NCBI RefSeq assembly: GCF_963921235.1
Contig: NC_086108.1
Location: 38,628,001-38,692,000 of the forward strand
DNA from: Mobula hypostoma
Lineage: Eukaryota
Direction: 5' to 3'
DNA length: 64,000 nucleotides
The position numbers and the translations under genes are program-made. The notes under the pieces are model-generated. The model was given only the letters and a program-made list of their open reading frames with translations, was not told where the DNA came from and ran no database searches. Positions 1 to 21,800 of this stretch are shown one piece after another. Every line of letters starts with the position of its first letter. Positions within the stretch are counted from its first letter, which is position 1.

Positions 1-1178
1 TGCCGCATCTGCTCTCAGGATGAGGCTTTTCATTCTAGGACGAGGGAGATGTCTTCATTTTTTAAAGAAAGGGGCTTCCCTTCCTCCACTATCAAATCTG
101 CTCTTAAACGCATCTCCCCCATTTCACGTACATCTGCTCTCACTCCATCCTCCCACCACCCCACTAGGAATAGGGTTCCCCTGGTCCTCACCTACCACCC
201 CACCAGCCTCCGGGTCCAACATATTATTCTCCGTAACTTCCGCCACCTCCAATGGGATCCCACCACTAAGCATATCTTTCCCTCCCCCCCTCTCTCTGCA
301 TTCCGCAGGGATCGCTCCCTACACAACTCCTTTGTCCATTCGTCCCCCCCATCCCTCCCCACTGATCTCCCTCCTGGCACTTATCCGTGTAAGCGGAACA
401 AGTGCTACACATGCCCTTACACTTCCTCCCTTACCACCATTCAGGGCCCCAAACAGTCCTTCCAGGTGAGGCATCACTTCACCTGTGAGTCGACTGGGGT
501 GATATACTGCGTCCGGTGCTCCCGATGTGGCCTTTTATATATTGGTGAGACCCGACGCAGACTGGGAGACCGCTTTGCTGAACGTCTACGCTCTGTCCGC
601 CAGAGAAAGCAGGATCTCCCAGTGGCCACACATTTTAATTCCACATCCCATTCCCATTCTGACATGTCTATCCACGGCCTCCTCTACTGTAAAGATGAAG
701 CCACACTCAGGTTGGAGGAACAACACCTTATATTCCGTATGGGTAGCCTCCAACCTGATGGCATGAACATTGACTTCTCTAACTTCCGCTAGGCCCCACC
801 TCCCCCTCGTACCCCGTCTGTTACTCTTTTTAATGCACACATTCTTTCTCTCACTTTCCTTTTTCTCCCTCTGTCCCTCTGAATATACCTCTTGCCCATC
901 CTCTGGGTCACCCCCACCCCGTCTTTCTTCCCGGACCTCCTGTCCCATGATCCTCTCGTATCCCCTTCTGCCTATCACCTGTCCAGCTCTCGGCTCCATC
1001 CCTCCCCCTCCTGTCTTCTCCTATCATTTTGCATCTCCCCCTTCCCCTCCTGCTTTCAAATCCCTTACTCACTCTTCCTTCAGTTAGTCCTGACGAAGGG
1101 TCTCGGCCTGAAACGTCGACTGCGCCTCTTCCTAGAGATGCTGCCTGGCCTGCTGCGTTCACCAGCAACTTTGATGTA
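1..1178 (+). mobile_element. Penelope-like retroelement 3' part (RT tail + GIY-YIG endonuclease, pLTR)
   Basis: ORF 49-792: C-x4-C-x2-C motif, GVIYCVRCSRCGLLYIGETRRRLGDRFAE, PVATHFN, E..LI...SLQPDGMN; pyrimidine-rich UTR and pLTR. Confidence 0.92.
1086..1121 (+). ncRNA. Minimal type I hammerhead ribozyme in Penelope pLTR
   Basis: AGTC-CTGACGA-AGGgtctcggCCT-GAAA-CG-TC-GACT: intact core, stems I and II, palindromic mini stem III. Confidence 0.8.
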
Positions 1179-1237
1179 TGCTGCCATAGTTCTATCATCA
1201 TTTTCATTTAATTTTAGTAATAATATGGACAAGTTAC

Positions 1238-1411
1238 CAATACAAGTTGGATAAGATTGGTCGGCAAACCATTATCCATCCTTGCATGTGATTACTTTAT
1301 TTCTTTGCAATCTGAACCGCTGTGCACATCTAATATTCGGTGATTCTCCATCTCTCTATGAAGATCTTCTGGGTGGTGTCATGTTGGGAATATTTGGACT
1401 TGAACATGGCC
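1238..1411 (-). pseudogene. Pseudogenised sushi/CCP (SCR) domain exon, F13B/CFH-family-like
   Basis: AG|..|GT-bounded 174-bp phase 1/1 exon: PCSSPNIPNMTPPRRSS*RDGESPNIRCAQRFRLQRNKVITCKDG*WFADQSYPTCI. It has 4 Cys plus Trp in CCP spacing and two in-frame stops. Confidence 0.8.
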
Positions 1412-1779
1412 CTGATGAAACAATAGTTAATTTAATTTTCATTAAGCAGGATTATAAGCATATCGTTGTTTTTGATGATGGTCAAGTTCTTATTTAGCTT
1501 TTAGCAATTCCTAATGAGCATTTGCTGGAAAAGGCAAGCTTGAAAAGCAACAGCAAGGGTCTGCATGGTGACAGACCTTCTCAATGTAAACAAGGTGTGG
1601 GGCATAATGGGCTCTGCCCAGCAAAATGTTGACCAGACTTTGACAGCTGGCTTAGTTATGCTCACTGGACAAGTGGGCTTATACAGTAAACATGGAGGAA
1701 AAAGTGGAGTGGACTCAATTAGTCCACAAGGGAGGCAAGTGGTTTGATAACTAAAGGAAATCCATAACTTAAATAGTGC

Positions 1780-2415
1780 CATTCAACCATGACTGATTTA
1801 TTTTCACTCTCAATTACATTCTCCTGTCTTCTCCCCATAACCTTTGACACTCTTACTAATCAAGAACCTATCAATCTCTGCTTTAAAAATACCCAAATAA
1901 CTTGGCCTCCACAGCCACCTTTGGCAATGAATTCCACAGAATCACTACCCTCTGGCTAAAGAAATTCCTCCTCATCCTTGTTCTAAACAAACATCTTTGA
2001 ATTCTAAGGTTGTACCCTCTGGTTCTAGACTCTCCGACAAATGGAAACATCATTTTCACCTACACTCTTGCTAGACTTTTCAATATTCGGTAAGTTTCAA
2101 TGAGATCACCCTCGTTTTTCTAAACTGCAGCAAGTACAGGCCCAAAGCCATCAAACACTACTGATACATTAAACCTTTCACGATGAGGATCACTCTTGTA
2201 ACCTCCTCTGGACCCTCCCAAATGCCAGCACACTCTTCCTTAGATATATGGCCCAAAACTGTTCACAATATTCCAAAAGAGCCTTATAAAGTCTTAGCAT
2301 TACATCCTTCTTAACATTTATATTCTTGTCCTCTGCAAATGAATGCTAACATTGCATATGCCTCCCTTACCACCGACTCAGCCTACAAGTTAACCGCTGG
2401 GGAATCCTGTACTAG
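1780..2415 (-). mobile_element. Degenerate CR1 LINE 3' fragment
   Basis: Reverse-complement similarity to CR1 RT C-terminus and 3' UTR seen elsewhere in the window. Confidence 0.7.
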
Positions 2416-2419
2416 AACT

Positions 2420-2980
2420 CCGAACAACACATACAAAATGCTGGTGGAACGCAGCAGGCCAGGCAGCATCTATAGGAAGAAGTACAGTCGACGTTTCGGG
2501 CCAAGACTCTTCGTCAGGACTAACTGAAAGAAGAGCTAGTAAGAGATTTGAAAGTGGGAGGGGGAGGGGGAGATCCGAAATGATAGGAGAGGACAGGAGG
2601 GGAAGGGATGAAGCTAAGATCTGGAAAGTTGATTGGCAAAAGGGATACAAGGTTGGAGAAGGGAGAGGATCATGGGAAGGGAGCAACACTTACAGTACGC
2701 TGGATGAACTCAGAAGGTCGGGCAGCATCAGTGGAAATGATGAGTCGACGTTTTGGGCCAGAATCCTTTGTTAGGACTGAAGAATGAAGGAGGTGGAAGG
2801 ATTTGAAGAATGCTTGTAGGTTCAGTTGAAAGACCAGTAATTTGAAAGACGAAAGGGTGGGGGAGAGGAAGCATCGACGTCATAGGCAGGAAAACAATGG
2901 GTAGTAGAAGAAGGAGATCCTGCTTTCTCTGGGAATAAACAGTCAATGTTTTGGGCCAAAACCCTTCACCAGGACTTCAT
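2420..2980 (-). mobile_element. Cluster of Penelope pLTR fragments
   Basis: Reverse complement of the 940-1178 pLTR; one intact (2486-2521) and two decayed hammerhead motifs. Confidence 0.75.
2486..2521 (-). ncRNA. Minimal hammerhead ribozyme (Penelope)
   Basis: Minus strand AGTC CTGACGA agagtcttggccc GAAA CGTC GACT; stem II weakened. Confidence 0.65.
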
Positions 2981-3800
2981 GACATTGGTAGACAAGATGA
3001 GGAGGTCCTGAAGAAAGATTTTAAGGAACTAGGTATAAAGCTGAAAAAAAAGCACCATTAGAGTAGTAATCTCTAGGTTACTGCCTATGCCATGTGCCAG
3101 TGAGGGTAAGAATAGGATGATTTGGCAGGTGACTGCGTGGCTGAGGAGCTGGTGCAGTGGGCAGGGGTTCAGATTTATGGATCACTGGGATCTCTTCTGG
3201 GAAGGTATGAGCTGCACAAAGAGGGATAGGTTACACTTGAGCCCGAGGGGTCCAATATCCTTGCAGGCAGCTTGGCTAGAGTTGTTTGGGTAGGTTTGAA
3301 CTAATTTAGCGGGGGGTGGGAAGAATGATAATGCTGAAGATGAGGTAATTAGTTTACAAAGAGATGCAATGTGTTGTGAGCTCCTAGCATGGAGAGGCTG
3401 ATGATAGGACAAAATTGCAGTCATCAGGATGAATTTGCAAAGCAAAAGGTGGACAAAATTGAAAAGAGTGAATACAGGACTGAAGGTGTTGTCAAATCAC
3501 AAACAAGAGAAAATCTGCAGATGCTGGAAATCCAAGCAACACACAGTGCTGGACGAACTCAGCAGGCCAGGCAGCATCCATTGAAAAAAACCCTTCAGCA
3601 GGGTTTCGGCCCGAAATATCACTGTACTTTTGTCCATAGATGCTGCCTGGCTTGCTGAATTCCTCCAGCATTTGGTCTGAAGGTGTTATATTTGAATATG
3701 TGCATTATATGGAATAAGATAGATAAACTTGTAGCACAGTTACAGATTGACATGTATGATATTGTAGGCATCACTGAATCACGATTGAAAGAAGATTTTT
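2981..3800 (+). mobile_element. Old CR1 fragment (ORF1 esterase end to endonuclease start), interrupted by a Penelope cassette
   Basis: WLRSWCSGQGFRFMDHWDLFW and [24 protein letters not shown] match the young CR1 at 5250. Confidence 0.75.
3491..3676. mobile_element. Short inverted Penelope pLTR cassette with 11-bp TSD
   Basis: CTGAAGGTGTT at 3480-3490 and 3677-3687 flanks oppositely oriented pLTR ends. Confidence 0.75.
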
Positions 3801-3804
3801 CTTC

Positions 3805-4630
3805 TATCAAAGTGCATGATCATGCACTTCCCAACACTTATTCCATTTGCCATTTCTTTGCTCATTCTCCTAAGCTGTCTTTTCTTCTTTAGCCTCTCTA
3901 CTTCCTCAAAACTACCTGCCCCTCCACCTACCTTTGTATTGTCTGCAAACTTTGCAGCAGAGCCATCAAGTCCACCATCCAAAACATTAACATATAATGT
4001 AAAAAGAACCGGCCCTGATACAGATCCCTGTTGAACACCACTAGACACCGGCAGCCAACCAGAAAAGGCTCCCATTATTCACACACTTTGCCTCCTGCCG
4101 GTCAGCCACAGCTTTATCCATGCTAGAATCTTTCCTGTAATACCATGGGCTCGTAGCTTGTTAAGCAGCCTCATGTGTGGCATCTTGTCAAAGGCCTTCT
4201 GAAAATGCAAATACACAACATCAACCAATTCTCCTTTATTTATCCTGCTTGTTATCTCTTCAAAGAATTCCAACAGAATTGTCAGGCAAGTTTTTCACTT
4301 GAGGAAACTTTGCTGACTATGGCCTATTTTATCATGTGCCTCCAAGTATCCCAAAACCACATCATTAACAATCGACTCCAACATCTTCCCAACCACTGAG
4401 GTCAGACTAATTGTCCTATAATTTCCTTTCCTCTGCCTCTATCCCTTCTTGAAGAGTGGAGTGATATTTTCAATTTTCCAGTCTTCTGGAACCATTCTAG
4501 AATTTAGTGATTCTTGAAAAATCATTATTAATATCTCCACCATCTCCTCAGCCACCTCTTTTAGAATCCTAGGTGTATACTGTCTGGTCCAAATAACTTA
4601 TCTACCTTTGGACCTTTCAGTTTCTCAAGA
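3805..4630 (-). mobile_element. Degenerate CR1 RT fragment
   Basis: EFFEEITSRINKGELVDVVYLHFQKAFDK; SGVQQGSVSGP; KFADNTK. Confidence 0.85.
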
Positions 4631-4906
4631 ACATTCTCTGCACAAGGGTTCACATGCTCATCTCAATACTTAACAAGTATCTGCCTCCAACGTTCCTCAA
4701 GCAGTGTGTTTAAATCTTTAACCATTCTCTGTATTAAAAAACTGCTTAAATTCCCTCTAAATCATGAAAACCTTATCTTAAACATAAACCTTCTGGTTTT
4801 AGATATTCCACCTGAACTAATCCAATTTACCCATGCTTGGCCCACATCCCTCTGAGCCTTTGTTATCAAAGCACCTGTACAAATGTTTTTTTAAATATTG
4901 TTGTTA

Positions 4907-7900
4907 GACCATAAGACCATAAGACATAGGAGCAGAATTAGGCCATCTGGCCCATCGAGTCTGCTCCACCATTGAATCATGGATGATTGTTTTATCTATC
5001 TCCTCCTCAACCCCAGTTCCTGGCCTTCTTCCCATAACTTTTGATGCCATGTTCAATCAAGAACCTATCAATCTCTGCCATACATATACCCAACGACCTG
5101 GCCTCCACAGCTGCATGTGGCAACAAATTCCACAAATTTACCACCCTTTGGTTAAAAAAATATCTCCACATCTCTGTTTTGAAAGGAGCCTTCTTTCCTG
5201 AGGCTATGCCCTCTTGTCCTAGACTCTCCCACCATGGGAAACATCCTTTTTGAGTACTCTTGGGGGGGACAGCTTACCCAGGGGAAGCGACAGTGGCCGT
5301 GCCTCCGGCACAGAGTCTGGCCCTGTAGCTCAGAAGGGTAGGGCAAGGAAGAGGAGGGCAGTTGTGATAGGGGACTCGATAGTAAGGGGGTCAGATAGGC
5401 GATTCTGTGGACGCAGTCCAGAGACCCAGATGGTAGTTTGCCTCCCTGGTGCCAGGGTCTGGGATATTTCTGATCGTGTCCAAGATATCCTGAAGTGGGA
5501 GGGTGAGGAGCCAGAGGTCGTGGTACATATAGGTACCAATGACATAGGTAGGAAAAGGGATGAGGTCCTGAAAGGAGAATATAGGGAGCTAGGAAGGGAG
5601 TTGAGAAAAAGGACCACAAAGGTAGTAATCTCGGGATTACTGCCTGTGCCACGCGACAGTGAGAGTAGGAATGCGATGAGGTGGAGGATAAATGCGTGGC
5701 TGAGGGATTGGAGCAGGGGGCAGGGATTCAAGTTTTTGGATCATTGGGACCTCTTTTGGCGCAGGTGTGATCTGTACAAAAAGGACGGGTTACAATTGAA
5801 TCCTAGGGGGACCAATATCCTGGCAAGGAGATTAGTGGGGGCTACTGAGGTGACTTTAAACTAGAATGGTTGGGGGGTGGGAATCAAATTAAAGAGGCTA
5901 GGCGTGAGGAGGTTAGTTCACGACAGAGGGATGGGAACCAGTGCAGGGAGACAGAGGGGTGTAAAGTGAGGGTAGAAGCAAAAAGTACAAAGGAGAAAAG
6001 TAAAAGTGGCAGGCCGACAAATCCAGGGCAAGCATTGAAAAGGGCCACTTTTCAACATAATTGTATAAGGGCTAAGAGAGTTGTAAAAGAGCGCCTGAAG
6101 GCTTTATGTGTCAATGCAAGGAGCATTCGTAATAAGGTGGATGAATTGAAAGTGCAGATTGTTATTAATGATTATGATATAGTTGGGATCACAGAGACAT
6201 GGCTCCAGGGTGACCAGGGATGGGAGCTCAACGTTCAGGGATATTCAATATTCAGGAGGGATAGACGTGAAGGAAGGGGAGGTGGGGTGGTGTTGCTGGT
6301 TAAAGAAGAGATTAACGCAATAGAAAGGAAAGACATAAGCCGGGAAGATGTGGAATCGATATGGGTAGAGCTGCGTAACACTAAGGGGCAGAAGACGCTG
6401 GTGGGAGTTGTGTACAGGCCACCTAACAGTAGTAGTGAGGTCGGAGATGGTATTAAACAGGAAATTAGAAATGTGTTCAATAAAGGAACAGCAGTTATAA
6501 TGGGTGACTTCAATCTACATGTAGACTGGGTGAACCAAACTGGTAAAGGTGCTGAGGAAGAGGATTTCTTGGAATGTATGCGGGATGGTTTTTTGAACCA
6601 ACATGTCGAGGAACCAACTAGAGAGCAGGCTATTCTGGACTGGGTTTTGAGCAATGAGGAAGGGTTAATTAGCGATCTTGTCGTGAGAGGCCCCTTGGGT
6701 AAGAGTGACCATAATATTCATGGCAGATGCAATTTAATGTGGATAAATGTGAAGTTATCCACTTTGGTGGCAAAAATAGGAAAACAGATTATTATCTGAA
6801 TGGTGGCCGATTAGGAAAAGGGGAGGTGCAACGAGACCTGGGTGTCATTATACACCAGTCATTGAAAGTGGGCATGCAGGTACAGCAGGCGGTGAAAAAG
6901 GCGAATGGTATGCTGGCATTTATAGCGAGAGGATTCGAGTACAGGAGCAGGGAGGTACTACTGCAGTTGTACAAGGCCTTGGTGAGACCACACCTGGAGT
7001 ATTGTGTGCAGTTTTGGTCCCCTAATCTGAGAAAAGACATCTTTGCCATAGAGGGAGTACAAAGAAGGTTCACCAGATTGATTCCTGGGATGGCAGGACT
7101 TTCATATGAAGAAAGACTGGATGAACTGGGCTTGTACTCGTTGGAATTTAGAAGATTGAGGGGGGATCTGATTGAAACGTATAAGATCCTAAAGGGATTG
7201 GACAGGCTAGATGCAGGAAGATTATTCCCGATGTTGGGGAAGTCCAGAACGAGGGGTCACAGTTTGAGGATAGAGGGGAAGCCTTTTAGGACCGAGATTA
7301 GGAAAAACTTCTTCACACAGAGAGTGGTGAATCTGTGGAATTCTCTGCCACAGGAAACAGTTGAGGCCAGTTCATTGGCTATATTTAAGAGGGAGTTAGA
7401 TATGGGCCTTGTGGCTACGGGGGTCATGGGGTATGGAGGGAAGGCTGGGGCGGGGTTCTGAGTTGGATGATCAGCCATGATCATAATAAATGGCGGTGCA
7501 GGCTCGAAGGGCCGAATGGCCTACTCCTGCACCTATTTTCTATGTTTCTATGTTTCTATGCTTCCACATCTACTCTGTCTAGGCCTTTCAATATTCGAAA
7601 GGTTTCAATGAGATCCCCCCCTTATCCTTCTGAATTCCAGCAAATACAGACCCAGAGCCATCAAACGTTCCTCATATGATAACCCTTTCATTCCTGGAAT
7701 CATCCTTGTGAACCTCCTCTGGACACTCTCCGATGCCAGCACATCTTTTCTGAGATGAGGCGCCCAAAACTGTTCACAATACTCAAGGTGAGGCCTCATC
7801 AGTGCCTTATAAAGCCTCAGCATTACATCCTTGCTCTTGTATCCTAGACCTCTTGAAATGAATGCTGACATGGCATTTGCCTTCCTCACCACCGACTCAA

Positions 7901-8190
7901 ACTGCAAGTTAACCTTCAGGGTGTTCTACTCGAGGACTCCCAAGTCCCTCTGCATCTCAGATCCTGGATTTTCTCCCTGTTCAGAAAATAGTCTGCACGT
8001 TTATTTCTACTACCAAAGTGCATGACCATGCATTTTCCAACATTGTGTTTCATTTGCCACTTTCTTGCCCATTCTCCTAATCTGCATCTTGCCTGTTTCG
8101 TCAACACTACCTGCCCCTTCACCAATCTTGGTATCATCTGCAAACCTGGCAACAAAGGCATCTATTCCATCATCTAAATCATTTATATAC
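4907..8190 (-). mobile_element. Older CR1 3' part split by a younger CR1 (pieces 4907-5249 and 7561-8190)
   Basis: GGAAACATCCTT | TCCACATCTACTCTG rejoin across the insert; RPHLEYCEQFWAP and RFADDTK motifs; short 3' tail repeat at about 4907-4926. Confidence 0.8.
5250..7560 (+). mobile_element. Young CR1 LINE: ORF1 SGNH esterase, APE endonuclease, internally deleted RT, (TTTCTATG)3 tail
   Basis: [54 protein letters not shown]. Confidence 0.95.
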
Positions 8191-9884
8191 AATCATTTAT
8201 TGTACTTGCTTCAAGCACCTCCTCTGGCAGCTCATTCCATATTCTTACCACCAACCATGTGAAAAAATTACTACGCAGGTCCCTCTTAAATCTTTTCCCT
8301 CTTTTCTTTAACATACTTCCTCTAATTCTCAACTCCCGAACCGTGGGATTAAAACTGTACATTAACCTCATCAAAACTCCTCTGGATCTTATACACCTCC
8401 AAGATCATGCATCATTCCTCCTTCACTCTAGGAAATAAATTCCTAGCTTGCTCAACCCCTCCCTACAAACTCAGTCCCTCAAGACCTAACATCATCCTCT
8501 TGAATCTTTTCTGGATTCTTTCCAGATTAATGGCATCTTTCCTTTAGCAGGGTTATAACAACAGTACTCCAAGTGTAGTCAACGGCATCTTTGCAACTGC
8601 AACATTTCATACTAACTTCTTTGCTCAGTGTCCAACTGATAAAGGCTAGTGCATCAAAAACCTTATTCACCACCTGTTATGTCGTTTTTCTAGTGTGGCT
8701 AACTCCCTTCTTATCATTTTCAAAGTTAAGCTTTTTCTTTTTAGCACACTGCTGTCTTAAAGCAGAGTGTTGTATCCATTGCACTTGCAGGAAATTCTCT
8801 TTCTTTTTTCCAGAGGCCTTCGCTTCTAAACTCTTAGCAATCAAGTGCAGTAACTTTACCACCTTGATCTTTAGATCACTTTCCCAATACTGAGGTGGTC
8901 TCATTTACACAATACACATGCCAGCCTATTGAATCCTTCAAAATTTTTTCTATTCTCCTTGGATTTTGGAGAGATTCAGGCTCCAGTCCATGAGTAGCTT
9001 TCTTTTTTTTTAGCATTTTCCCCTGAATCCCATCAAATACATTAATTAATGAAATAAGAAGAAGCTCTTTTGGATTTTAATTTGAGTTAATGTATGAGAA
9101 AGAGAGCGACTCAATCATAAACTTTCTAACATTAAGTTTATTGTAAAAGTACATAGAATAATAGAAAAGAGAAGACAAACATGACGTCTCTAAGAAGAGG
9201 AAGTCTGCAGACGCCGGAAATCTGCAAGAAGTGTGTGTTGCAAGAAATCTCTGGCTGTTCTGCCTGTAGACGACTTCGACTCAGGATGGCTGGTCTCGAA
9301 TGCTTGTGATCATGGACAATGCCAGGATCACCACACTGAGAAGTCCAAAGAGTTCAGCCAACTTTCGAATGATGAAACCAACATCTTACAGTACATATGG
9401 ATAAAGCTTATCAGACACACTTTAAGTGAATCCGTAGACATACTTAGTAATAACAATATTATATGCAAGTCAATGATCAGTTGCTCTTGACAATATCAAG
9501 TGTTCTCTTTGATAATTAATGTGCAGCAGAAGTTGCTTTGTGAAGCAGAGGTAGGTTTTAACAATGATTGATTACGCATCACCCTGTGATGATTTCAACC
9601 CCCTTTTGGGGTATTTCAAATGTCAGTTTCCTGCCTGCATCTGGAATGCATGGTGGTTACTTGCAGTGTCCAGCTTTGCTCCTCTGTACGTGGTTGCAAG
9701 GCATGAGTGAATTCTGCAGAAGAGTGGTCCTTAAAAACTCCGGAATTCACCAACCACAACAGGGTGTAGAGTTCTGTTCCTGCTCACTTACTATGCCGAG
9801 AAGTTACCATTTATAGTTTCATTGACCTAATTGTAACAAATTCTACTGATAATCTGACAGATTAATAGATTATGTCACTTGCAA

Positions 9885-10960
9885 ATTTCGACAGATGTAC
9901 ATTCTGACTGATTGAATCTCCACCTGCTTTGGGGAAGTTCAATGTGCAGGATTGAAAGAGGCTGCGGAGGGTTATATCATCTGACAATCCACTCATGAGC
10001 ACTACCCTCCCCACCATCAAGGGTTATCTTCAAGAGGTGGCACCTCAAATTGGTGGCATCCATCATTAAGGGCTCTCATTATCTGGGACATGCATTTTTG
10101 TTACGAGGGGTGATTGATAAGTTGGTGACCTAAGGTAGAAAGAGTCAATTTTAGAAAACCTAGCACATTAATTTTTCAACATAGTCCCCTCCTACATGTA
10201 CACACTTAGTCCAGCGGTCGTGGAGCATACGGATCCCTTCCTTGTAGAAATGGTCCACAGCAGGGGTGATTGATAAGTTCATGGCCTAAGGTAGAAGGAA
10301 ATGAGTTATTAACTTCAAACTTTCTGCATTTTCATGCAAAGAGTTGAACACGTGCATGTAACGAGAGCGTCTTGGACCTCCAGGTGGTCCACAGCAGGGG
10401 TGATTGATACGTTCGTGGCCTAAAGTAGAAGGAGATGAGTTTTACAGCTCTCGTTACATGCACGTGCAGTTCAACTCTTTGCATGAAAATGCAGAAAGCT
10501 TGAAGTTAATAACACATCTCCTTCTACCTTAGACCATGAACTTATCAATCACCCCTGCTGGGGATTGCTTCTGGAGGTCCAAGACGCTGACTTCTACAAA
10601 GAAGGGATCCGTATGCTCCACGACTGCTGGACTAGGTGTGTAAATGTAGGAAAAATAAATGTGCTAGGTTTTCTAAAATTGACTCCTTGTACCTTAGGTC
10701 ATGAACTTATCAATCACCCCTCGTATTATTACCATGGCACAGGAGCCCAAAGACCATAATCAACATTTTAGGAACAGCGCCTTCCCTTTCACCAGCAGAT
10801 TTCTAAATGGTCCATGAACATGACCTCATTATTCCTCTTTTTCATTATTCATTTTTTGTAACTTAGAGTAACTTTTATACCTTGCACTGTATAGCAGCTG
10901 CAAAAAAAAAACAAATTTCATGACATACAATTAGAGAAATAAATCTGATTCTGATTATCT
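9885..10960 (+). mobile_element. Degenerate Rex1/Babar-like LINE 3' end, host of the mariner MITE
   Basis: Decayed RT C-terminal sequence continues across the MITE; AATAAA(TCTGAT)n tail. Confidence 0.55.
10104..10723. mobile_element. Palindromic Tc1/mariner MITE, TA TSD
   Basis: TA|CGAGGGGTGATTGATAAGTT...AACTTATCAATCACCCCTCG|TA; both arms carry the mariner C-terminus FYKEGIRMLHD(R/C)WT(K/R)CV; internal TIR copies. Confidence 0.9.
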
Positions 10961-11168
10961 AGCTGTTTTCAGCATCCTGTTGTAGATATTTGCATTTGGC
11001 ATTCCGATTAGTATACAAGAAAAGAGATAATTATATTGCAGATGCTGGAACCTGGAACAATTTGCTGAAGGAATTCGGCAGGTCGAACAGCATCTGTTGC
11101 AGGAAAGGTATTATTCACATTTGGTAGCTTACTTTCCTTTCCTCCCTAACAGTTGAAATTATCCTTAG

Positions 11169-11316
11169 CAATGCATTTTGGTGAAGAGTTTTCTCAATGG
11201 AGGCAGGCTACCGTCAATCGTCTTTCTATTTTGTAACCCTATTAATATCTGCATCTGAAACAGGTAATTAGCGAATAATGATGTATCCATTTTCAGTAGC
11301 AGGTGATAGCCAATTT
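11169..11316 (-). pseudogene. More decayed second CCP-like exon
   Basis: WLSPATENGYII / FRCRY**GYKIERRLTVACLH*ENSSPKCI G|CTAAG; frameshift, stops and a mutated donor. Confidence 0.4.
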
Positions 11317-11809
11317 TAAACCAAACAATGAAGGGGTTCTTTTGGACCTATTGCACCTTTGTTGGCTCATCAGGACAATCCCATTCCTTTACTAATGTTT
11401 CCTACAAGAACTTCTCCCTAGATTCCCAACGTCTCCCACTGTCCTCTTGTCCCCTCCCCCTCCAACCCTGATCCTACCATTCACCCACTCACTGGAGCTA
11501 ATCTTCCTGTGGCTAAGTAACAGACCTTTGTGCAGGATTTGGTAGATTTTAAACTTTGAAGTAGTTTAAACTTAAAATAATGTATGAAAAGATCAGGGAC
11601 AAGAAGAATGATTTTCAAAGTAAACAGGCATGCCATCTCAGTGAAAACCAGTACCTGTATTAGCACCCAGTTAATAATTTATTGCAAAATCAATGTCACA
11701 TTACAGTGATTGCACATCCTCATAACTTTTGGTAAAAAGAAAACATTCTTGCATGTGAGTTACCTGAAAGATAAAGTTAAACAATCTAGCAAATTGTTTA
11801 AATTCTTAC

Positions 11810-11861
11810 ACTGTGCTAAATGATACCAGCAAAGCTAGTCTGTTGTCAGAAAATAGGGCAT
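11810..11861 (-). pseudogene. Possible decayed signal-peptide first exon of the CCP gene
   Basis: ATG..MPYFLTTD*LCWYHLAQ + 1 nt |GTAAG; phase 1 matches the CCP exons. Confidence 0.25.
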
Positions 11862-13941
11862 TGGGTTTTGGACTTTGTAACTACACTGGATGGCGATCTA
11901 GTGCAGTTATACAGCGATGAGTTTATTTACATTGTTCAGTAACATTAGATTCAAAATCATTGCATAATAGTTTTACTTTGAAAGAACGATAGGAGGCTGA
12001 GGATAGAAGATATCATATTGTAAGAATGCGGAGACAGGGTAAATGGCACGTTTAAGAAATGTTAATTAAAGTACCCACAATGTGATTAATGATAAGTTAT
12101 TGTCTCTGGGCTAGTGTTAGGTTTGCTGATTAAGCCGCAGTCTCAGATTGAAAACTGGTATCTGCTTACCGCACAGTAAAAATTTACCCAATTTATATGC
12201 AACATTACACATTTCATTGTTTAACATTGTTATCTTTCATATAACATACACGAGAGAGGCGTCTTTATATAAACAGATATGAGAACATGCAGTTGTGGTG
12301 CTAAAAGACCACATTGGGGTGATTGAAGCATTTCAAAGGGCAGTGTTTGAGATGTAGTTTTTGGAATGGTTGTATAAAATGAAATAGGATTGAAGTTAAA
12401 AAAGATAGATCACAAAAAGTATACTTGGCAGTGTCTGCTTCCCATGGGCTGAAATCCTCACTTGTACTTGCAAGTTTTATATTATTTTATGAAGCATCCT
12501 GTAGCTGTGTATGGTCAATGAGCTTGGAAGATTAGAGAGGTAATAATTGAATGTCTGAGCAAAGGGAAATGTCTTTGTATTTCATGAGAAGCCAAACATA
12601 CTGTAATTTGAAGATTTTTGATCTCTTTGTCTTGTGTTTTATGTTACAATGAAAATGCTCATGGCACACAAACTGTTAATACATAACCACACGTTTTCAT
12701 TGCTACCAGAAAAAGAGACACACAGAATATAAGCAGTCACCATTCAATATGATAATGGCTGGTCACCTTCTTCAGTTTTCTGCTCCTGGGTCCTCCCCAT
12801 AACCGTTGATCCAAGAATATATTTCATGATTGGACTTCCACAGGCTTCTGTGGTAGAGAATTTCATTCTCACTACTCTCTGGGTGAAGAAACCTGCACAC
12901 ATTTCAATTCTAAATGACTTTCTCCTTACAGGCTATGACACCTGGATCTGAACCTCAGGAACTTCCACCCCAGATATTGTCTGTTGATTCTGTTCAAATT
13001 TTATAGTTTCTATAAGGTCCAGAAAGCTCCATTATATTCCCTCCATGGCAGAAACATCCTTCCTCAGACAACAAGACCAAAACTTCACACCATAATTAAA
13101 TATGTGGTCTCACAAAGATTGTACAGTTACTGCAAGGCATTGTTGTCCCAGTACTCTAATCCTTTTGCAGTGAAGGTCAACATACCATATTTTTAAGAGA
13201 TTGCTATACAAGGACACCCAGATCCTGATTGGGAAGAGGAGGTTCGACAGTCACCATTCAGGTAACAATCCGTACTTTTAGCTCTAACATGGATACCTTC
13301 ATACTCACATTGAACTGCATTCACAGTGCTTTTTCTCATTCACCCAACTATTTAAAATCATATTTGAATCCCCTTTGCATTCTGCTCACAGTACCCTCTA
13401 GAATCATTTTAGCTGCAAATATGGAACTGTTATATTAAACTCTCTCATTCATACCACTGACATACTTGCAAATAACTAGGATTCCAAGCCCTGATCCCTC
13501 TAATTTCCCATTAATCACCATCTGGCAGACAAATGCTTATTCCTCCTTTGCCTCATCAATTAATTCTCAATCTAGGTCAGTATATTACCCCATTCTAAAT
13601 GTTTTCACTTTCACTCTAACCTCTTTTGTTGGATCTTATCAAAAACCTTCTGAAAGTTCACATATATCACATCCATTTGCTCTCCCTTGCCTATTACATT
13701 GCAAAATAAAGTTAACGGAGAAGCAACTTTGTGTTTGACTGTTTATGAAAAGGGCGACTGTAAACTTTTCCTCCCTAGTGGGTCTACTAGTTGCACCATT
13801 TGGCTCTCATTTGTCTCACCTTCCATTTGAACACAATCCATTTTTAAAAAAAGCATCAACCACTGAATATCAATATTACTTAGTTAAAAATGATTTTTTG
13901 AAAATAATGATGTGCTTCTGCACCTACTACTGCTGTATAAA

Positions 13942-14428
13942 GACAAGACATAGGAGCAGAATTAGGCTTTTTGGCCCTTCAAATCTGTTCCACCATTCGA
14001 TCGTGGCTGATTTATTTTCCCAGTCCTGCCTTACCCCTGTAACCCTTTCTAATCAATAATCTATCAAACTCCACTTTAAATATGCCCAATGACTTAGCCT
14101 CTACAGCCATCTGTGGAAATGAATTCCACAGATTCACCACTCTCTGGCCCTAGACTCTCGCACTATTGGAAAAATCATCTCCACCTCCACTCTTAGCCTT
14201 TCAATATTCCATAGGTTTCAATGAGATTCTTCCCCCATACCTCATTCTTCTAAACTCCAGTGAGTACAGGTCCAGAGCCATCAAATGCTCATATATTAAA
14301 CCTTTCATTCCCAGGATTATACTTATAAACCCCCACTGGACCCTCTTCAATATCATTATATCTTTTCTTAGATAAGGGGGTGAAATCTGTTCATAATGCT
14401 CCAAATGTGGTCTGACCAGTGCCTTACG
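13942..14428 (-). mobile_element. Degenerate CR1 3' fragment
   Basis: [25 protein letters not shown]1 3' UTR. Confidence 0.8.
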
Positions 14429-15481
14429 TAATGGAATATTCAGCTTTGGAAGCGGCAAGCTATTGCAGTGCATCCTTTGCATACATTTTTTTTGCTGGAA
14501 TTTTAAAGGGATCCTTTTTCCTTGCTTACACTGCATGTGGACAAGCTTACAGCTTCATTTGCTGAAGAACTGTAAATGATGATGAATGTGGCGGTCTGTA
14601 GACCAGCTTCTGGTCTGATGATGGAAGAAATGTTGGTGAAATTAATTTGGAATTGGAAGCTGTTACTGGGGCTCCTAACACAAGGATGATTGTTGTACTC
14701 CAACAAATCAGTGTTCTATTGCTGCCCACAGCTTTGCACATTTCACCTAGGCTTTTAATGGCAAAGGCACCCAAACTTCATCTCTGGAATATGCTTTTTG
14801 AAAGCACTGACAGTGAGCAACTCATATCTCTTGATAAATCCTTCTGTCAACTAGCACTCTGGTGCTGAGTGGGCTGAAGGGCCATTGACTGGCCAGATTA
14901 GATTTGTTTTCCAGTTTGTGCTGAGAATGGTAGATTGCAATTTTGCAGATGCAATGAAAAAAAAATCTAGTTAGAGTCATAGCCTGATGTGAAACGTCTT
15001 CAAGTGTTTGATTGTTTATGAAGAGGAGTTACCTGGTGATCTTTTAAGGAATTGGTTAAGTGTAAAGGTGCTTTGCTCAGCACTCAAAATCCCAATTAAC
15101 TTCACACTGGGAACACAATTTGCATAGATTACACTGGTTCTCAGTGAAAATAATAATCTTAAGGAAACCAAGGATAGGCAAAGTGTGCAGCCATGTGAAA
15201 AAGCTGCTTCCCAAGTTGTGAAATCTCTATTCAATCAGGTCTATTCTTGTTTATTTGAATCATGTACCAGGAACAATGATAAGTAAGAAGTTATTTATCT
15301 GCGGCAAAAACAAACATTCCTAACCCAAGCCCTGCTTCTTTGCTTTTTGACCAGTAATACAAGAGGATTTCTGATTTTATTTATTTTTTTCTTTTTCAAC
15401 ATATTCAAACAGCCTGCCACCAATCTAAGCTACTCAAAATTATCTGGGGTTTAAAACAAACTGATCTCTCACGAACCTTTC

Positions 15482-15635
15482 GGGTGGCACAGTAGGGTCG
15501 CGTAGGCTTAGCACTATTACAGTGCCAGTAACCTGGGCTCATTTCTTCTCCGTCTGTAAGGAGTCACCGTGACAGTATGGGTTTCCTCTAGGTGCCAAAG
15601 GTGTTTAGGTTAGTAGGTTAATGTGGTGAAATTGG
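15482..15635 (+). mobile_element. tRNA-derived V-SINE/HE1-like fragment
   Basis: GGTGGCACAGTAG A-box-like head and GGGTTTCCTC..GGTGC V-domain-like core. Confidence 0.55.
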
Positions 15636-15639
15636 GCAG

Positions 15640-18168
15640 TGCGGGCTTCAACTACTGCACAGAGTCTTGTCATCTTCAGAAGTTTTCTGATGACGCTGCC
15701 ATAGTTGGATGCATCAGCAAGGGAGATGAGGCTGAGTACGGTGGAAACTTTGTCGCATGGTGTAAGCAGAATTATCTGCAGCTTAATGTGAAAAAGACTA
15801 AGGAGCTGGTGGTAGACCTGAGGAGAGTTAAGGTACGGGTGACCCCTGTTTCCATCCAGGGGGTCAGTGTGGACATGGTGGAGGATTACAAATACCTGGG
15901 GATACGAATTGACAATAAACTGGACTGGTCAAAGGACACTGAGGCTGTCTACAAGAAGGGTCAGAGCCGTCTCTATTTCCTGAGGGGACTGAGGTCCTTT
16001 AACATCTGCTGGACAATGCTGAGGATGTTCTACTAGCCTGTGGTGGCCAGTGCGATCATGTTTGCTGTTGTGTGCTGGGGCAGCAGGCTGACGGTAGCAG
16101 ACACCAACAGAATCAACAGACTCATTCATAAGGCCAGTGATGTTGTGGGGATGGAACTGGACTCTCTGACAGTGGTGTCTAAAAAGAGGATGCTGTCCAA
16201 GTTGCATGCCATCTTGGACAATGTCTCCCATCCACTACATAATGATGATGGTGAGGACAATATGATTGATGTTCTGGAGCATGTTGATATTGAGGGAGAG
16301 GAGGTGTTGGAGTTGTTAAAATCCATTAGGACAGCTAAGTACCCGGGGCCTGACAGAATATTCCCCAGGCTGCTCCATGAGGCGGGAGAAGAGATTGCTG
16401 AGTCTCTAGCTAGGATCTTTATGTCCTCATTGTCCATGAGAATGGTACCAGAGGATTGGAGGGAGGCGAATGTTGTCCCCTTGTTCAAAAGAGGTAGTAG
16501 GGATAGTCCGGGTAATTATAGACCAGTGAGCCTTACGTCTGTGGTGGGAAAGCTGTTGGAAAAGATTCTTAGAGATAGGATCTCTAGGCATTTAGAGAAT
16601 CATGGTCTGATCAGGGACAGTCAGCATGGCTTTGTGAAGGGCAGATCATGTCTAACAAGCCTGATAGAGTTCTTTGAGGAGGTGACCAGGCATATAGATG
16701 AAGGTAGTGCAGTGGATGTGATCTATATGGATTTTAGTAAGGCATTTGACAAGGCTCCACACGGTAGGCTCATTCAGAAAGTCAGAAGGCATGAGATCCA
16801 GGGAAATTTGGCCAGGTGGATTCAGAATTGGCTTGCCTGCAGAAAGCAGAGGGTGGTGGTGGAGGGAGTACATTCAGATTGGAGGATTGTGACTAGTGGT
16901 GTCCCACAAGGATCTGTTCTGGGACCTCTACTTTTCGTGATTTTTATTAATGACCTGGATGTAGGGGTAGAAGGGTGGGTTGGCAAGTTTGCAGACGACA
17001 CAAAGGTTGGTGGTGTTATAGATAGTGTAGAGGATTGTCAAAGATTGCAGAGAGACAGTGATAGGATGCAGGAGTGGGCTGAGAAGTGGCAGATGGATTT
17101 CAACCTGGAGAAGTGTGAGGTGGTACACTTTGGAAGGACAAACTCCAAGGTAGAGTATAAAGTAAATGGCAGGATACTTGGTAGTGTGGAGGAGCAGAGG
17201 GATCTGGGGGTACATGTTCACAGATCCCTGAAAGTTGCCTCACAGGTAGATAGGGTAGTTAAGAAAGCTTATGGGGTGTTAGCTTTCATAAGTCAAGGGA
17301 TAGAGTTTAATAGTCGCGATGTAATGATGCAGCTCTATAAAACTCTGGTTAGGCCACACTTGGAGTACTGTGTCCAGTTCTGGTCACCTCACTATAGAAA
17401 GGATGTGGAAGCATTGGAAAGGGTACAGAGGAGATTTACCAGGATGCTGCCTGGTTTAGAAAGTATGCATTATGATCAGAGATTAAGGGAGCTAGGGCTT
17501 TACTCTTTGGAGAGAAGGAGGATGAGAGGAGACATGATAGAGGTGTACAAGATAATAAGAGGAATAGATAGAGTGGATAGCCAGCGCCTCTTCCCCAGGG
17601 CACCACTGCTAAATACAAGAGGACATGGCTTTAAAGTAAGGGGTGGGAAGTTCAAGGGGGATATTAGAGGAAGGTTTTTTACTCAGAGTGGTTGGTGCGT
17701 GGAATGCACTGCCTGGGTCAGTGGTGGAGGCAGATACACTAGTGAAGTTTAAGAGACTACTAGACAGGTATATGAAGGAATTTAAGGTGGGGGCTTATAT
17801 GGGAGGCAGGGTTTGAGGGTCAGCACAACATTGTGGGCCAAAGGGCCTGTACTGTGCTGTACTATTCTATGTTCTATAATGTAATGGTTGGGCACAGGAG
17901 TACGTTCAGCCAGAGACTCATTCCACTGAGATGCAACACAGAGCGTCATAGGAAGTCATTCCTGCCTTTGGCCATCAAACTTTACAACTCCTGCCTTAGA
18001 GGGTCAGACACCCTGAGCCAATAGGCTGGTCCTGGACCTATTTCCTGGCATAATCTACATATTACTATTTAACTATTTATGGTTTTATTATTACTATTTA
18101 ATTATTTATGGCACAACTGTAATGAAAACCAATTTCCCCCGGGATCAATAAAGTATGACTATGACTAT
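15640..18168 (+). mobile_element. Rex1/Babar LINE 3' part (15640-16244 and 17876-18168), interrupted by CR1
   Basis: LQKFSDDAAIVGCI, LNVKKTKELVVD, YKYLG..DNKLDW, QSRLYFLR; AATAAA(GTATGACT)-type tail. Confidence 0.9.
16245..17875 (+). mobile_element. 5'-truncated CR1 (RT) with ATAATG TSD
   Basis: Open RT ([23 protein letters not shown]); ATAATG at 16239-16244 and 17876-17881. Confidence 0.92.
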
Positions 18169-18409
18169 TGTTGGGACAGGAGCTGTGCTGTTACTGTGCT
18201 CTCTGTGTAAATAAAACAAAACTACAGAGCACATTTTTACTGACTGTATTGAAGTTCAGTGGAGACTTAGGTGATTATCTGTAAGGAGCTCCCATAGACA
18301 GTTTTCCTTCTCTACTTTAAACTATTAACCACAATATATTCATACAGCCAGGAAAAAAAGACATTACAAGACATTTCTATTTATAGTACTGTATGTAATA
18401 TTGTAAAAA

Positions 18410-18500
18410 TTTATTTCTTTTCCTTGTGACAATAAAAGGCAAGCATGGCAAACTGTACAAAAAGTATTAACAAATTTTGTTAACTTGTAAACAATTTATT
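18410..18500 (-). promoter_or_regulatory. Candidate ASPM polyadenylation signals (AATAAA at 18495-18500 and 18410-18415)
   Basis: Two minus-strand AATAAA 220-310 nt after the stop; the distal one is followed by GT/T-rich sequence. Confidence 0.5.
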
Positions 18501-18719
18501 GGATAACTCCACCCTCATTGTTTTCAGACTGAAGATGGACAATAACATTTCACCATGAGTGTCATGCATACGAAGGTTGCTTATGCAACCGAACTATATT
18601 TAACCAACTTTAGCAAATATACAAGCAGTACAAGTTGGAAAAGTTGAAGTTTTTTTGCATACATTTATATCAACATACCTAGCATTAAAATCAACTCTTT
18701 CCCCCTATTTTTTGAGATT

Positions 18720-18822
18720 TTAAAGAGAAATTCCAAGCGTATCTACGACCAACTGAATTGCTTTTAAAGGATCCACGACTTCTTTCACGTTGTCTCTCCT
18801 CAAGACCCAGTCTGGTTTTAAT
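18720..18822 (-). CDS. ASPM: ASPM last coding exon (103 bp CDS incl. TAA)
   Basis: gcAG|A TTA AAA CCA GAC TGG = [33 protein letters not shown]. Confidence 0.95.
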
Positions 18823-21800
18823 CTGCGAAACAGAGAAGTATAGAAATTTAGCCACGTCCTACAGGAAGAATTAAAGGAAACTGGAATGGGCAAGGTAAGG
18901 GAATGCCAGCAATGAACAAATGCAAAGAAAATAAATGGATTCTTACTTAGAAACTGCTCTTGTTCGCACTGGAGTGGCTGGAATATATAAACTACCATTG
19001 AGAGGAGCTTGCATGCGTTGCTTAACATTTACTCTGTCTGCATCCATTTTATGTTTCCTTGCTGTCAGTTTATAAACATTTCTGATTCGATCTACTGCTT
19101 TTGGCAAACTACGGACCTCCTGGAAGCAAAAACTATCATTAGATAATGTTACATTTATCAAATAATATTTTTCATTGTTTTGGTGGGACTACTGGAGAAG
19201 AAGAAATAAGCAGAAATTAATTGTGACCTTGTAATTATCAACACAAGTTTATTCTTTGCTACTTCTACTTATTCAACAAAATCGAAAGAGAGCAGACAAA
19301 ATTGCTATTCTGTTAAACTGCATTCTGAGAGTAATGTGAAGTATGACGTGTTAAGAAATCATCTTAGATATGACAACCAAGTTCTTTATGTGTCAATGCA
19401 AGGAGCATTCGTAATAAGGTGGATGAATTGAAAGTGCAGATTGTTATTAATGATTATGATATAGTTGGGATCACAGAGACATGGCTCCAGGGTGACCAGG
19501 GATGAGAGCTCAACGTTCAGGGATATTCAATATTCAGGAGGGATAGACATGAAGGAAGGGGAGGTGGGGTGGCGTTGCTGGTTAATGAAGAGATTAACGC
19601 AATAAAAAGGAAGGACATAAGCCAGGAAGATGTGGAATCGATATGGGTAGAGCTGCGTAACACTAAGGGGCAGAAGACGCTGGTGGGAGTTGTGTACAGG
19701 CCACCTAACAGTAGTAGTGAGGTCGGAGATGGTATTAAACAGGAAATTAGAAATGTGTGCAATAAAGGAACAGCAGTTATAATGGGTGACTTCAATCTAC
19801 ATGTAGACTGGGTGAACCAAATTGGTAAAGGTGCTGAGGAAGAGGATTTCTTGGAATGTATGCGGGATGGTTTTTTGAACCAACATGTCGAGGAACCAAC
19901 TAGAGAGCAGGCTATTCTGGACCGGGTTTTGAGCAATGAGGAAGGGTTAATTAGCGATCTTGTCGTGAGAGGCCCCTTGGGTAAGAGTGACCATAATATG
20001 GTGGAATTCTTCATTAATATGGAGAGTGACATAGTTAATTCAGAAACAAAGGTTCTGAACTTAAAGAGGGGTAACTTTGAAGGTATGAGACGTGAATTAG
20101 CTAAGATAGACTGGCAAATGACACTTAAAGGATTGACGGTGGATATGCAATGGCAAGCATTTGAAGGTTGCATGGATGAACTACAACAATTGTTCATCTC
20201 AGTTTGGCAAAAGAATAAATCAAGGAAGGTAGTGCACCCGTGGCTGACAAGAGAAATTAGGGATAGTATCAATTCCAAAGAAGTAGCATACAAATTAGCC
20301 AGAGAAAGTGGCTCACCTGAGGACTGGGAGAAATTCAGAGTTCAGCAGAGGAGGACAAAGGGCTTAATTAGGAAGGGGAAAAAAGATTATGAGAGAAAAC
20401 TGGCGGAGAACATAAAAACGGACTGTAAAAGCTTTTATAGATATGTAAAAAGGAAAAGACTGGTAAAGACAAATGTAGGTCCCCTGCAGACAGAAACAGG
20501 TGAACTGATTATGGGGAGCAAGGACATGGCAGACCAATTGAATAATTACTTTGGTTCTGTCTTCACTAAGGAGGACATAAATAATCTTCCAGAAATAGTA
20601 AGGGACAGAGGGTCCAGTGAGATGGAGGAACTGAGTGAAATACATGTTAGTAGGGAAGTGGTGTTAGGTAAATTGAAGGGATTGAAGGCAGATAAATCCC
20701 CAGGGCCAGATGGTCTGCGTCCTAGAGTGCTTAAGGAAGTAGCCCAAGAAATAGTGGATGCATTAGTGATAATTTTTCAAAACTCGTTAGATTCTGGACT
20801 AGTTCCTGAGGATTGGAGGGTGGCTAATGTAACCCCACTTTTTAAAAAAGGAGGGAGAGAGAAACCGGGGAATTATAGACCCGTTAGCCTAACGTCGGTG
20901 GTGGGGAAACTGCTGGAGTCAGTTATCAAGGATGTGATAACAGCACAGTTGGAAAGCGGTGAAATGATCGGACAAAGTCAGCATGGATTTGTGAAAGGAA
21001 AATCATGTCTGACGAATCTCATAGAATTTTTTGAGGATGTAACTAGTAGAGTGGATAGGGGAGAACCAGTGGATGTGGTATATTTGGATTTTCAAAAGGC
21101 TTTTGACAAGGTCCCACACAGGAGATTAGTGTGCAAACTTAAAGCACATGGTATTGGGGGTAAGGTATTGGTGTGGGTGGAGAATTGGTTAGCAGACAGG
21201 AAGCAAAGAGTGGGAATAAACGGGACCTTTTCAGAATGGCAGGCGGTGACTAGTGGGGTACCGCAAGGCTCAGTGCTGGGACCCCAGTTGTTTACAATAT
21301 ATATTAATGACTTGGATGAGGGAATTAAATGCAGCATCTCCAAGTTTGCGGATGACACGAAGCTGGGTGGCAGTGTTAGCAGTGAGGAGGATGCTAAGAG
21401 GATGCAGGGTGACTTGGATAGGTTGGGTGAGTGGGCAAACTCATGGCAGATGCAATTTAACGTGGATAAATGTGAAGTTATCCACTTTGGTGGCAAAAAT
21501 AGGAAAACAGATTATTATCTGAATGGTGGCCGATTAGGAAAAGGGGAGGTGCAACGAGACCTGGGTGTCATTATACACCAGTCATTGAAAGTGGGCATGC
21601 AGGTACAGCAGGCGGTGAAAAAGGCGAATGGTATGCTGGCATTTATAGCGAGAGGATTCGAGTACAGGAGCAGGGAGGTACTACTGCAGTTGTACAAGGC
21701 CTTGGTGAGACCACACCTGGAGTATTGTGTGCAGTTTTGGTCCCCTAATCTGAGGAAAGACATCTTTGCCATAGAGGGAGTACAAAGAAGGTTCACCAGA

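What the first reader, a model, noticed from the sequence alone, without database searches (positions are those of the whole stretch)
1238..11861. Hidden pseudogene of a sushi/CCP-domain (F13B/CFH-like) gene just downstream of ASPM
Seen: a 174-bp AG/GT-bounded phase 1/1 exon (1238-1411, minus) with CCP Cys/Trp spacing and stops at 1356-1358 and 1272-1274. A second, more decayed CCP-like exon lies at 11169-11316, and a possible phase-1 signal-peptide exon at 11810-11861. None appears in the ORF track. Known: in mammals F13B and the CFH/CFHR cluster lie directly downstream of ASPM, F13B on the same strand, and CCP exons are typically phase 1/1. Inference: the ASPM-CCP gene linkage is ancient and this copy has been inactivated in this lineage.
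Basis: partly seen in the sequence, partly recalled or inferred. Interest (0 to 1): 0.72.

Follow-up and report, generated by a model that had tools for sequence, protein, structure and literature searches.

The report
Dead factor-H-related gene in devil rays
Next to ASPM in a ray genome lies a stop-broken copy of one exon of the complement regulator factor H while an intact copy exists elsewhere in the same genome, and it is likely the remnant of a short factor-H-related gene that is annotated as whole in sawfish, an ordinary kind of immune-gene turnover.

Summary
The 174-bp exon at 1238-1411(-) is real: Sushi above Pfam's cut-off, AG/GT-bounded, both stops as stated. It is a copy of module 7 of the 11-module shark/ray factor H, not of F13B. 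Contigs from the probable source sample hold both this broken copy and an intact paralog about 10% different whose visible codons match Mobula hypostoma factor H at 16 of 16; a second species has both copies and shares the first stop only. So factor H is not lost and the stops are not assembly errors. Best reading: pseudogene of an FHR-type gene, probably homogenised with factor H by gene conversion. The 11169-11316 segment is probably an older CCP relic (borderline); the 11810-11861 signal exon is unsupported. ASPM-cfh linkage is already published for teleosts.

The parts
1238..1411 (-). Broken CCP exon, copy of module 7 of shark/ray complement factor H; phase 1/1, canonical AG/GT
   Evidence: 44/57 identical to P0001, 37/57 to P0002 and P0070, 20-24/57 to six other sharks and rays
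1356..1358 (-). Older nonsense codon (TAG) at a Tyr position; shared with the matching copy of organism B, absent in organism D
   Evidence: row 1356
1272..1274 (-). Younger nonsense codon (TAA) at a Gln position; seen only in organism A
   Evidence: row 1274
1186..1694 (.). Exon plus intron flanks shared with an intact paralog of the same genome (53 other letters, 8 gap letters); left limit is the limit of the stretch laid
   Evidence: table 8, X1 record 2
9258..9426 (-). Decayed stretch homologous to the N-terminal 55 residues (leader) of sawfish 'complement factor H like 5'; core 9258-9344; frameshifted, no ATG at the matching place, no GT at its end
   Evidence: 18/31 identical; score 70; 0 of 150 sequence shuffles and 0 of 150 query shuffles reach it
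11169..11316 (-). Probable much older CCP exon relic, not assignable to any module; membership of this gene unknown
   Evidence: For. Against:
18720..18822 (-). Last coding exon of the neighbouring ASPM-like gene (landmark)
   Evidence: domains; the name ASPM is assigned from the domain layout (recalled)

Best explanation
The stop-broken factor H module-7 exon and the decayed leader-like stretch 8 kb upstream are likely the first two exons of a dead, short factor-H-related (FHR-type) gene, the probable counterpart of sawfish 'complement factor H like 5'. Shown: the exon, its two stops, an intact paralog in the same genome, the absence of modules 1-6 between it and ASPM, and the homology of 9258-9426 to the sawfish leader. 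Inferred: the gene arose by partial duplication of the 3' half of factor H before sawfish and devil rays split; it would have encoded a secreted protein with the surface-binding end of factor H but no regulatory modules 1-4, hence a competitor of factor H on surfaces; gene conversion kept its modules close to each lineage's own factor H; selection lapsed in the devil-ray lineage, the first stop arising before organisms A and B split and the second after.
For: Module identity. Two copies at equal depth in X1 (17 and 16.2; X1 may be the assembly's source) and in X5 from another study and species (6.4 and 6.8). Visible paralog codons match P0002 at 16 of 16 and P0070 at 14 of 14 (from the 40 of 70 rows shown). 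No exon for the signal peptide or modules 1-6 anywhere in the window. P0140 joins a unique 55-residue leader directly to module 7; that leader matches the window once, on the right strand and in the right order. P0140 and sawfish factor H P0003 list the same 144,684,616-bp contig length. Visible exon changes private to the window lineage: 6 amino-acid-changing or nonsense against 1 silent. Each short copy groups with its own lineage's factor H (P0140+P0003 99/98 for modules 10-11), the pattern expected of conversion; partial duplication and conversion are the described mode at the human locus (PMC10099856, section 4 read).
Against: A clade of the window exon with P0140 is rejected (AU p=0.0007), so common origin rests on the leader match alone plus assumed conversion. 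That match was first seen among 218 queries at tblastn E=0.001, beside two unrelated hits of like E-value. The stretch has no ATG or donor here, and its opposite strand looks by eye like a decayed pogo-type transposase (no Pfam support), so it could be a dispersed repeat. P0140 is a predicted model and its place beside aspm could not be checked. Modules 8-11 would lie left of position 1 and were not seen. The exon is closer to unnamed full-length P0001 (44/57) than to its own genome's factor H (37/57), which needs fast evolution of the Mobula gene or conversion in the other direction.
Confidence: 0.63

Rival explanations
1. Independent partial duplication of factor H within stingray-type rays that never had, or soon lost, a function; the leader match is a repeat copy that a sawfish gene model happened to use.
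For: Trees put the exon with myliobatiform factor H and reject a clade with P0140. No ATG or donor at the leader stretch; transposase-like look of its other strand (by eye). Organism D shows one copy only, and it already carries the Pro at position 24 that 0 of 12 intact module-7 sequences have.
Against: The leader match occurs once in 128 kb of both strands, on the right strand between ASPM and the very module it abuts in P0140; no second copy by self-BLAST. Both duplicates would have had to start at module 7 independently.
Confidence: 0.24
2. Relic of a second full-length factor H gene whose 5' exons were deleted; P0001 is its intact ortholog in another ray, so stingray-type and devil-ray factor H genes would be paralogs.
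For: Exon groups with P0001 (76/95 and 89/95 support). In intron 1412-1617 about 8 changes map to the window lineage, about 11 to the paralog and 2-3 to organism D, which fits a duplication older than D better than the reverse (p about 0.01-0.04 for D as outgroup under a clock; partly from totals, since 30 rows were hidden).
Against: A clade of the exon with both Mobula proteins is not rejected (AU p=0.16 and 0.26). No trace of seven 5' exons in 17 kb. Module 7 is among the fastest-changing modules, so the grouping may be conversion or rate.
Confidence: 0.09
3. Pseudogene of coagulation factor XIII B, which holds this slot in mammals.
For: Same strand as, and downstream of, ASPM (mammalian order: PMC7768046 figure 7 legend names the genes; strand recalled). 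The unassigned relic at 11169-11316 could come from another CCP gene.
Against: Best F13B module 14.0 bits, i-E 0.62, against 27.2 bits for human factor H and 97 bits for ray factor H module 7; about 90% DNA identity to the ray factor H exon and flanks.
Confidence: 0.02
4. The species has lost its only factor H, or the stops are assembly errors or an allele.
For: Two contigs at equal depth could be alleles in a single run.
Against: A read-derived contig equals the window with 0 differences; both types occur in two species; the first stop is shared across them; the intact type matches annotated full-length proteins.
Confidence: 0.02

Closest known systems
Shark/ray complement factor H-like proteins of about 800 aa (e.g. 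XP_062919927.1 Mobula hypostoma, XP_072130829.1 M. birostris, XP_051868095.1 Pristis pectinata)
   Same: The exon is their module 7, with the same boundaries and intron flanks
   Different: Two stops, a Pro in a position hydrophobic or small in 12 of 12 intact copies, and no exons for modules 1-6 upstream
Pristis pectinata 'complement factor H like 5' (XP_051868804.1, 424 aa, predicted model)
   Same: Leader-like stretch followed by module 7 as first CCP; no regulatory modules
   Different: Window copy is dead; its module 7 is only 27/57 identical and groups with myliobatiform factor H
Human CFHR1-5 cluster (PMC10099856, section 4 and passages read)
   Same: Partial duplicates of CFH that keep surface-recognition modules, lack modules 1-4, sit in the CFH-ASPM neighbourhood and undergo conversion and loss
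   Different: Separate origin; starts at a module most like human FH residues 798-847 of the mature chain rather than FH 6-7; dimerisation motif not tested
Teleost cfha genes linked to aspm (PMC7768046, section 24 and passages read)
   Same: Tandem, lineage-specific cfh copies beside aspm
   Different: That study examined only elephant shark and whale shark among cartilaginous fishes and no ray
Coagulation factor XIII B chain
   Same: CCP-only protein; ASPM-adjacent slot in mammals
   Different: Far weaker sequence match

Membership tests
Sushi/CCP module (PF00084) | Score above Pfam's gathering cut-off; four Cys and one Trp | tested here: met
   Exon 1238-1411: 25.8 bits against 20.7; Cys 2, 28, 42, 56, Trp 47
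Sushi/CCP module (PF00084) | Same test for 11169-11316 | tested here: inconclusive
   No Pfam hit; above null only with pooled profiles and frameshifts, not with 12 others
Factor XIII B | Best match among CCP proteins is an F13B module | tested here: not met
Full-length complement factor H gene | Exons for signal peptide and regulatory modules 1-4 upstream | tested here: not met
   None in the window by tblastn or 14 profiles
FHR-type gene | Derived from CFH and lacking modules 1-4 | tested here: met
   P0140 layout
FHR-type gene | Keeps the C-terminal surface-binding modules | not testable with these tools
   They would lie left of position 1; no genome held. Present in P0140, best match human FH 1023-1212
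FHR-type gene | Secreted, binds C3b/surfaces, competes with FH | not testable with these tools
   Needs protein work on the sawfish product
Ortholog of sawfish cfhl5 | Shares its unique leader in the same order and strand | tested here: met
Ortholog of sawfish cfhl5 | Module 7 forms one clade with it | tested here: not met
   AU p=0.0007; expected if conversion acted, so orthology is inferred, not shown
Ortholog of sawfish cfhl5 | Same position beside aspm in sawfish | not testable with these tools
   Only the shared contig length is available
Duplicated (unprocessed) pseudogene | Disabling changes present in read-derived contigs, intron flanks kept, intact paralog present | tested here: met

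The most novel reading that the evidence does not exclude
Batoid rays evolved their own FHR gene independently of mammals: a duplicate of the 3' half of factor H that took a new secretion leader from the antisense strand of an old DNA-transposon relic, traded modules with factor H by gene conversion in both directions (a module 7 of the duplicate's type now sits in the full-length factor H of another ray, P0001), and was then lost in devil rays and mantas.
Probability: 0.25. Interest if true: 0.52.

Novelty: new member of a known kind. Interest (0 to 1): 0.3.

Why it matters
It extends the duplicate-convert-lose pattern of the CFH/CFHR locus to cartilaginous fishes, where the papers found here report at most one factor H gene, and gives a datable loss (one stop shared by two species, one private). 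It does not show loss of factor H or of F13B. It is of use to complement-evolution specialists, not surprising beyond them.

Tried and rejected
No whole genome held, so nothing left of position 1 could be read. No RNA holder listed for the exon; the one RNA-guessed run laid, X17 of unknown tissue, did not cover it: no evidence either way. Search for short relatives of modules 6-8 gave 2 catfish proteins among 7 candidates. Metagenome scan with P0140: 28 pattern matches, 0 confirmed. ESM Atlas: only hits under 0.8 for P0140 and for the plus-strand ORF 9194-9487. Rfam: 0 matches in 1-19000. Pfam on 12 frames of 8400-10103: no transposase hit, so the transposon origin of the leader stretch is an impression only. 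A bacterial promoter scan is irrelevant to this genome. Pairwise frameshift alignment of 11150-11345 with 219 of 879 CCP modules gave no preferred module (best an arthropod protein). The end of paralog similarity at 1694 was considered as a duplication breakpoint and set aside: a repeat begins just beyond it (records 3-10). Paper searches found nothing on a ray FHR gene or this pseudogene; subscription papers are mostly outside the library, and the supplements of PMC7768046 were not read.
Full report
Observation. The minus strand holds AG at 1413-1412, a 174-bp exon 1411-1238 and GT at 1237-1236. Its frame gives 57 codons with Cys 2, 28, 42, 56, Trp 47 and stops at codons 18 and 46. With X at the stops it passes the Pfam Sushi cut-off (E=1.4e-5, 25.8 against 20.7 bits). 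The large gene upstream on the same strand has a CH domain and a 1495-codon IQ exon and ends at 18720; I call it ASPM from that layout (recalled). Much of 1-23000 is retroelement debris.

Which CCP gene. Against solved structures the best single module is in human factor H (27.2 bits); the best F13B module scores 14.0. A protein search returned 1 of 1 candidates, unnamed P0001, 803 aa, 77% identical. Searching with P0001 gave 67 proteins among 1546 candidates, headed by six named shark and ray 'complement factor H(-like)' proteins of 773-810 aa, with 11 CCP modules and a C-terminal domain. The exon is module 7: tblastn E=5e-23 with P0001 and 4e-19 with P0002. Fourteen profiles covering signal peptide, each module and the C-terminus found only this exon: 80.1 bits, next 9.0, reversed control 7.9. 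So the 5' half of a full-length factor H gene is not in the window.

Are the stops real, and is factor H lost? Contigs of four runs were laid on 1186-1827 (40 of 70 difference rows shown). X1, which may be the assembly's source, has one contig equal to the window (0 differences, depth 17) and a second with 53 other letters and 8 gap letters over 1186-1694 (depth 16.2) that lacks both stops. X5, another species and study, also has both types (4 and 29 differences over 1190-1408); its window-type copy keeps the stop at 1356 but not the one at 1274. X10, a third species, shows one contig, 20 differences over 479 bp, with neither stop. The visible codon changes of the X1 paralog give the P0002 residue at 16 of 16 codons, those of the X5 paralog the P0070 residue at 14 of 14; these are named Mobula hypostoma and M. 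birostris proteins. The genome is therefore likely a devil ray's, factor H is intact in it, and the window holds a dead duplicate with intron flanks. Visible exon changes private to the window lineage are 6 replacement or nonsense against 1 silent. The X10 copy shares a Pro at position 24 that 0 of 12 intact module-7 sequences have, so decay may predate the stops.

What the duplicate was. A profile search of 1.84 billion representatives (best 150 listed) brought P0140, named 'complement factor H like 5' of the sawfish Pristis pectinata: a 55-residue leader joined directly to modules 7, 8, 10, 11 and the C-terminal domain, best matching the C-terminal end of human factor H. A tblastn of all 218 stored proteins against 1-19000 showed its leader hitting 9344-9252 on the minus strand (18/31 identical, E=0.001; two unrelated proteins gave chance-looking hits of similar E). 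With frameshifts allowed the match covers 9426-9258, 20 of 29 residues in the core, and scores 70 where 0 of 150 shuffled windows (max 58) and 0 of 150 shuffled queries (max 62) reach it. It lies on the right strand and in the right order, and explains why modules 1-6 are missing. Against it: no ATG at the matching place, no GT at its end, a predicted gene model as the only witness, and an opposite strand that by eye resembles a pogo-type transposase (motif recalled; Pfam silent).

Trees. For module 7 the exon joins P0001 (76/95, 89/95); a clade with the two Mobula proteins is not rejected (p=0.16, 0.26); a clade with P0140 is (p=0.0007). P0140 joins sawfish factor H for modules 10-11 (99/98) and 7-8 (67/89), but its C-terminal domain leans, without support, to the myliobatiform proteins (64/67). 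One old duplicate kept alike by conversion, or two independent duplicates starting at the same module, both fit; the shared leader favours the first. Why the exon is nearer P0001 than its own genome's factor H is unresolved: modules 6, 7 and 11 are the least conserved between the two Mobula proteins (41/52, 49/57, 54/62), so fast change in the live gene or conversion into P0001's lineage are both open. A rough count of intron changes (about 8 window, 11 paralog, 2-3 organism D in 206 bp, partly from totals) mildly favours a duplication older than organism D.

11169-11316 has no Pfam hit and did not exceed background with a gappy general profile or 11 single-module profiles. With two better pooled profiles it was the second minus-strand peak in all 18 settings, with 0-4 null peaks in 192 kb (donor weights were approximate and recalled), and with the shark/ray profile 1 null peak in 1.92 Mb and 0 in 0.64 Mb. 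After 14 profiles tried I put it at about 65% a real, far older CCP relic; no module is preferred. 11810-11861 resembles none of four tested N-termini.

Literature. PMC7768046 (passages and section 24 read; supplements not read) reports teleost cfha genes linked to aspm and one CFH homologue in elephant shark, none retrieved in whale shark. PMC10099856 (passages and section 4 read) describes FHR genes as incomplete duplications of CFH that keep surface-recognition but not regulatory modules, prone to conversion, possibly selected to compete with pathogen-recruited FH; the function I infer for the live ancestor rests on that analogy. PMC9207270 (one passage) lists factor H in nurse shark plasma. 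Eight searches (listings only otherwise) showed nothing on this locus in rays. Five look-ups of earlier scan notes found no match.

Verdict. A real duplicated pseudogene of the factor H family, likely FHR-type, in a neighbourhood already known to carry cfh genes. New member of a known kind; interest 0.3.

Noticed in passing
P0002 vs P0070; P0006 vs P0071: Module 6 is the least conserved part of ray factor H in both close pairs (41/52 and 34/53, most others 86-100%), recalling the pathogen-bound modules of human FH (recalled); a candidate for positive selection.
   Followed up: no
P0167: Little skate also has a short CFH-related model (modules 8-11 with module 10 doubled, plus C-terminal domain) on a 96-kb scaffold, so 3'-half duplicates of factor H may recur in batoids.
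   Followed up: no
P0001-P0007 residues about 673-803: Shark/ray factor H carries a conserved C-terminal domain of about 130 aa (Cys-rich start, then beta-rich) after the last CCP with no Pfam hit; mammalian FH matches stop before it.
   Followed up: no
   Followed up: no
window 10102-10725: About 620-bp imperfect palindrome (76% self-match), MITE-like.
   Followed up: partly
window 5223-7560 and 19384-23060 (+): Young CR1-type LINE pieces 97-99% identical to each other, with GDSL-esterase ORF1 and internal tandem duplications of the 3' end; one sits in the last introns of ASPM.
   Followed up: partly
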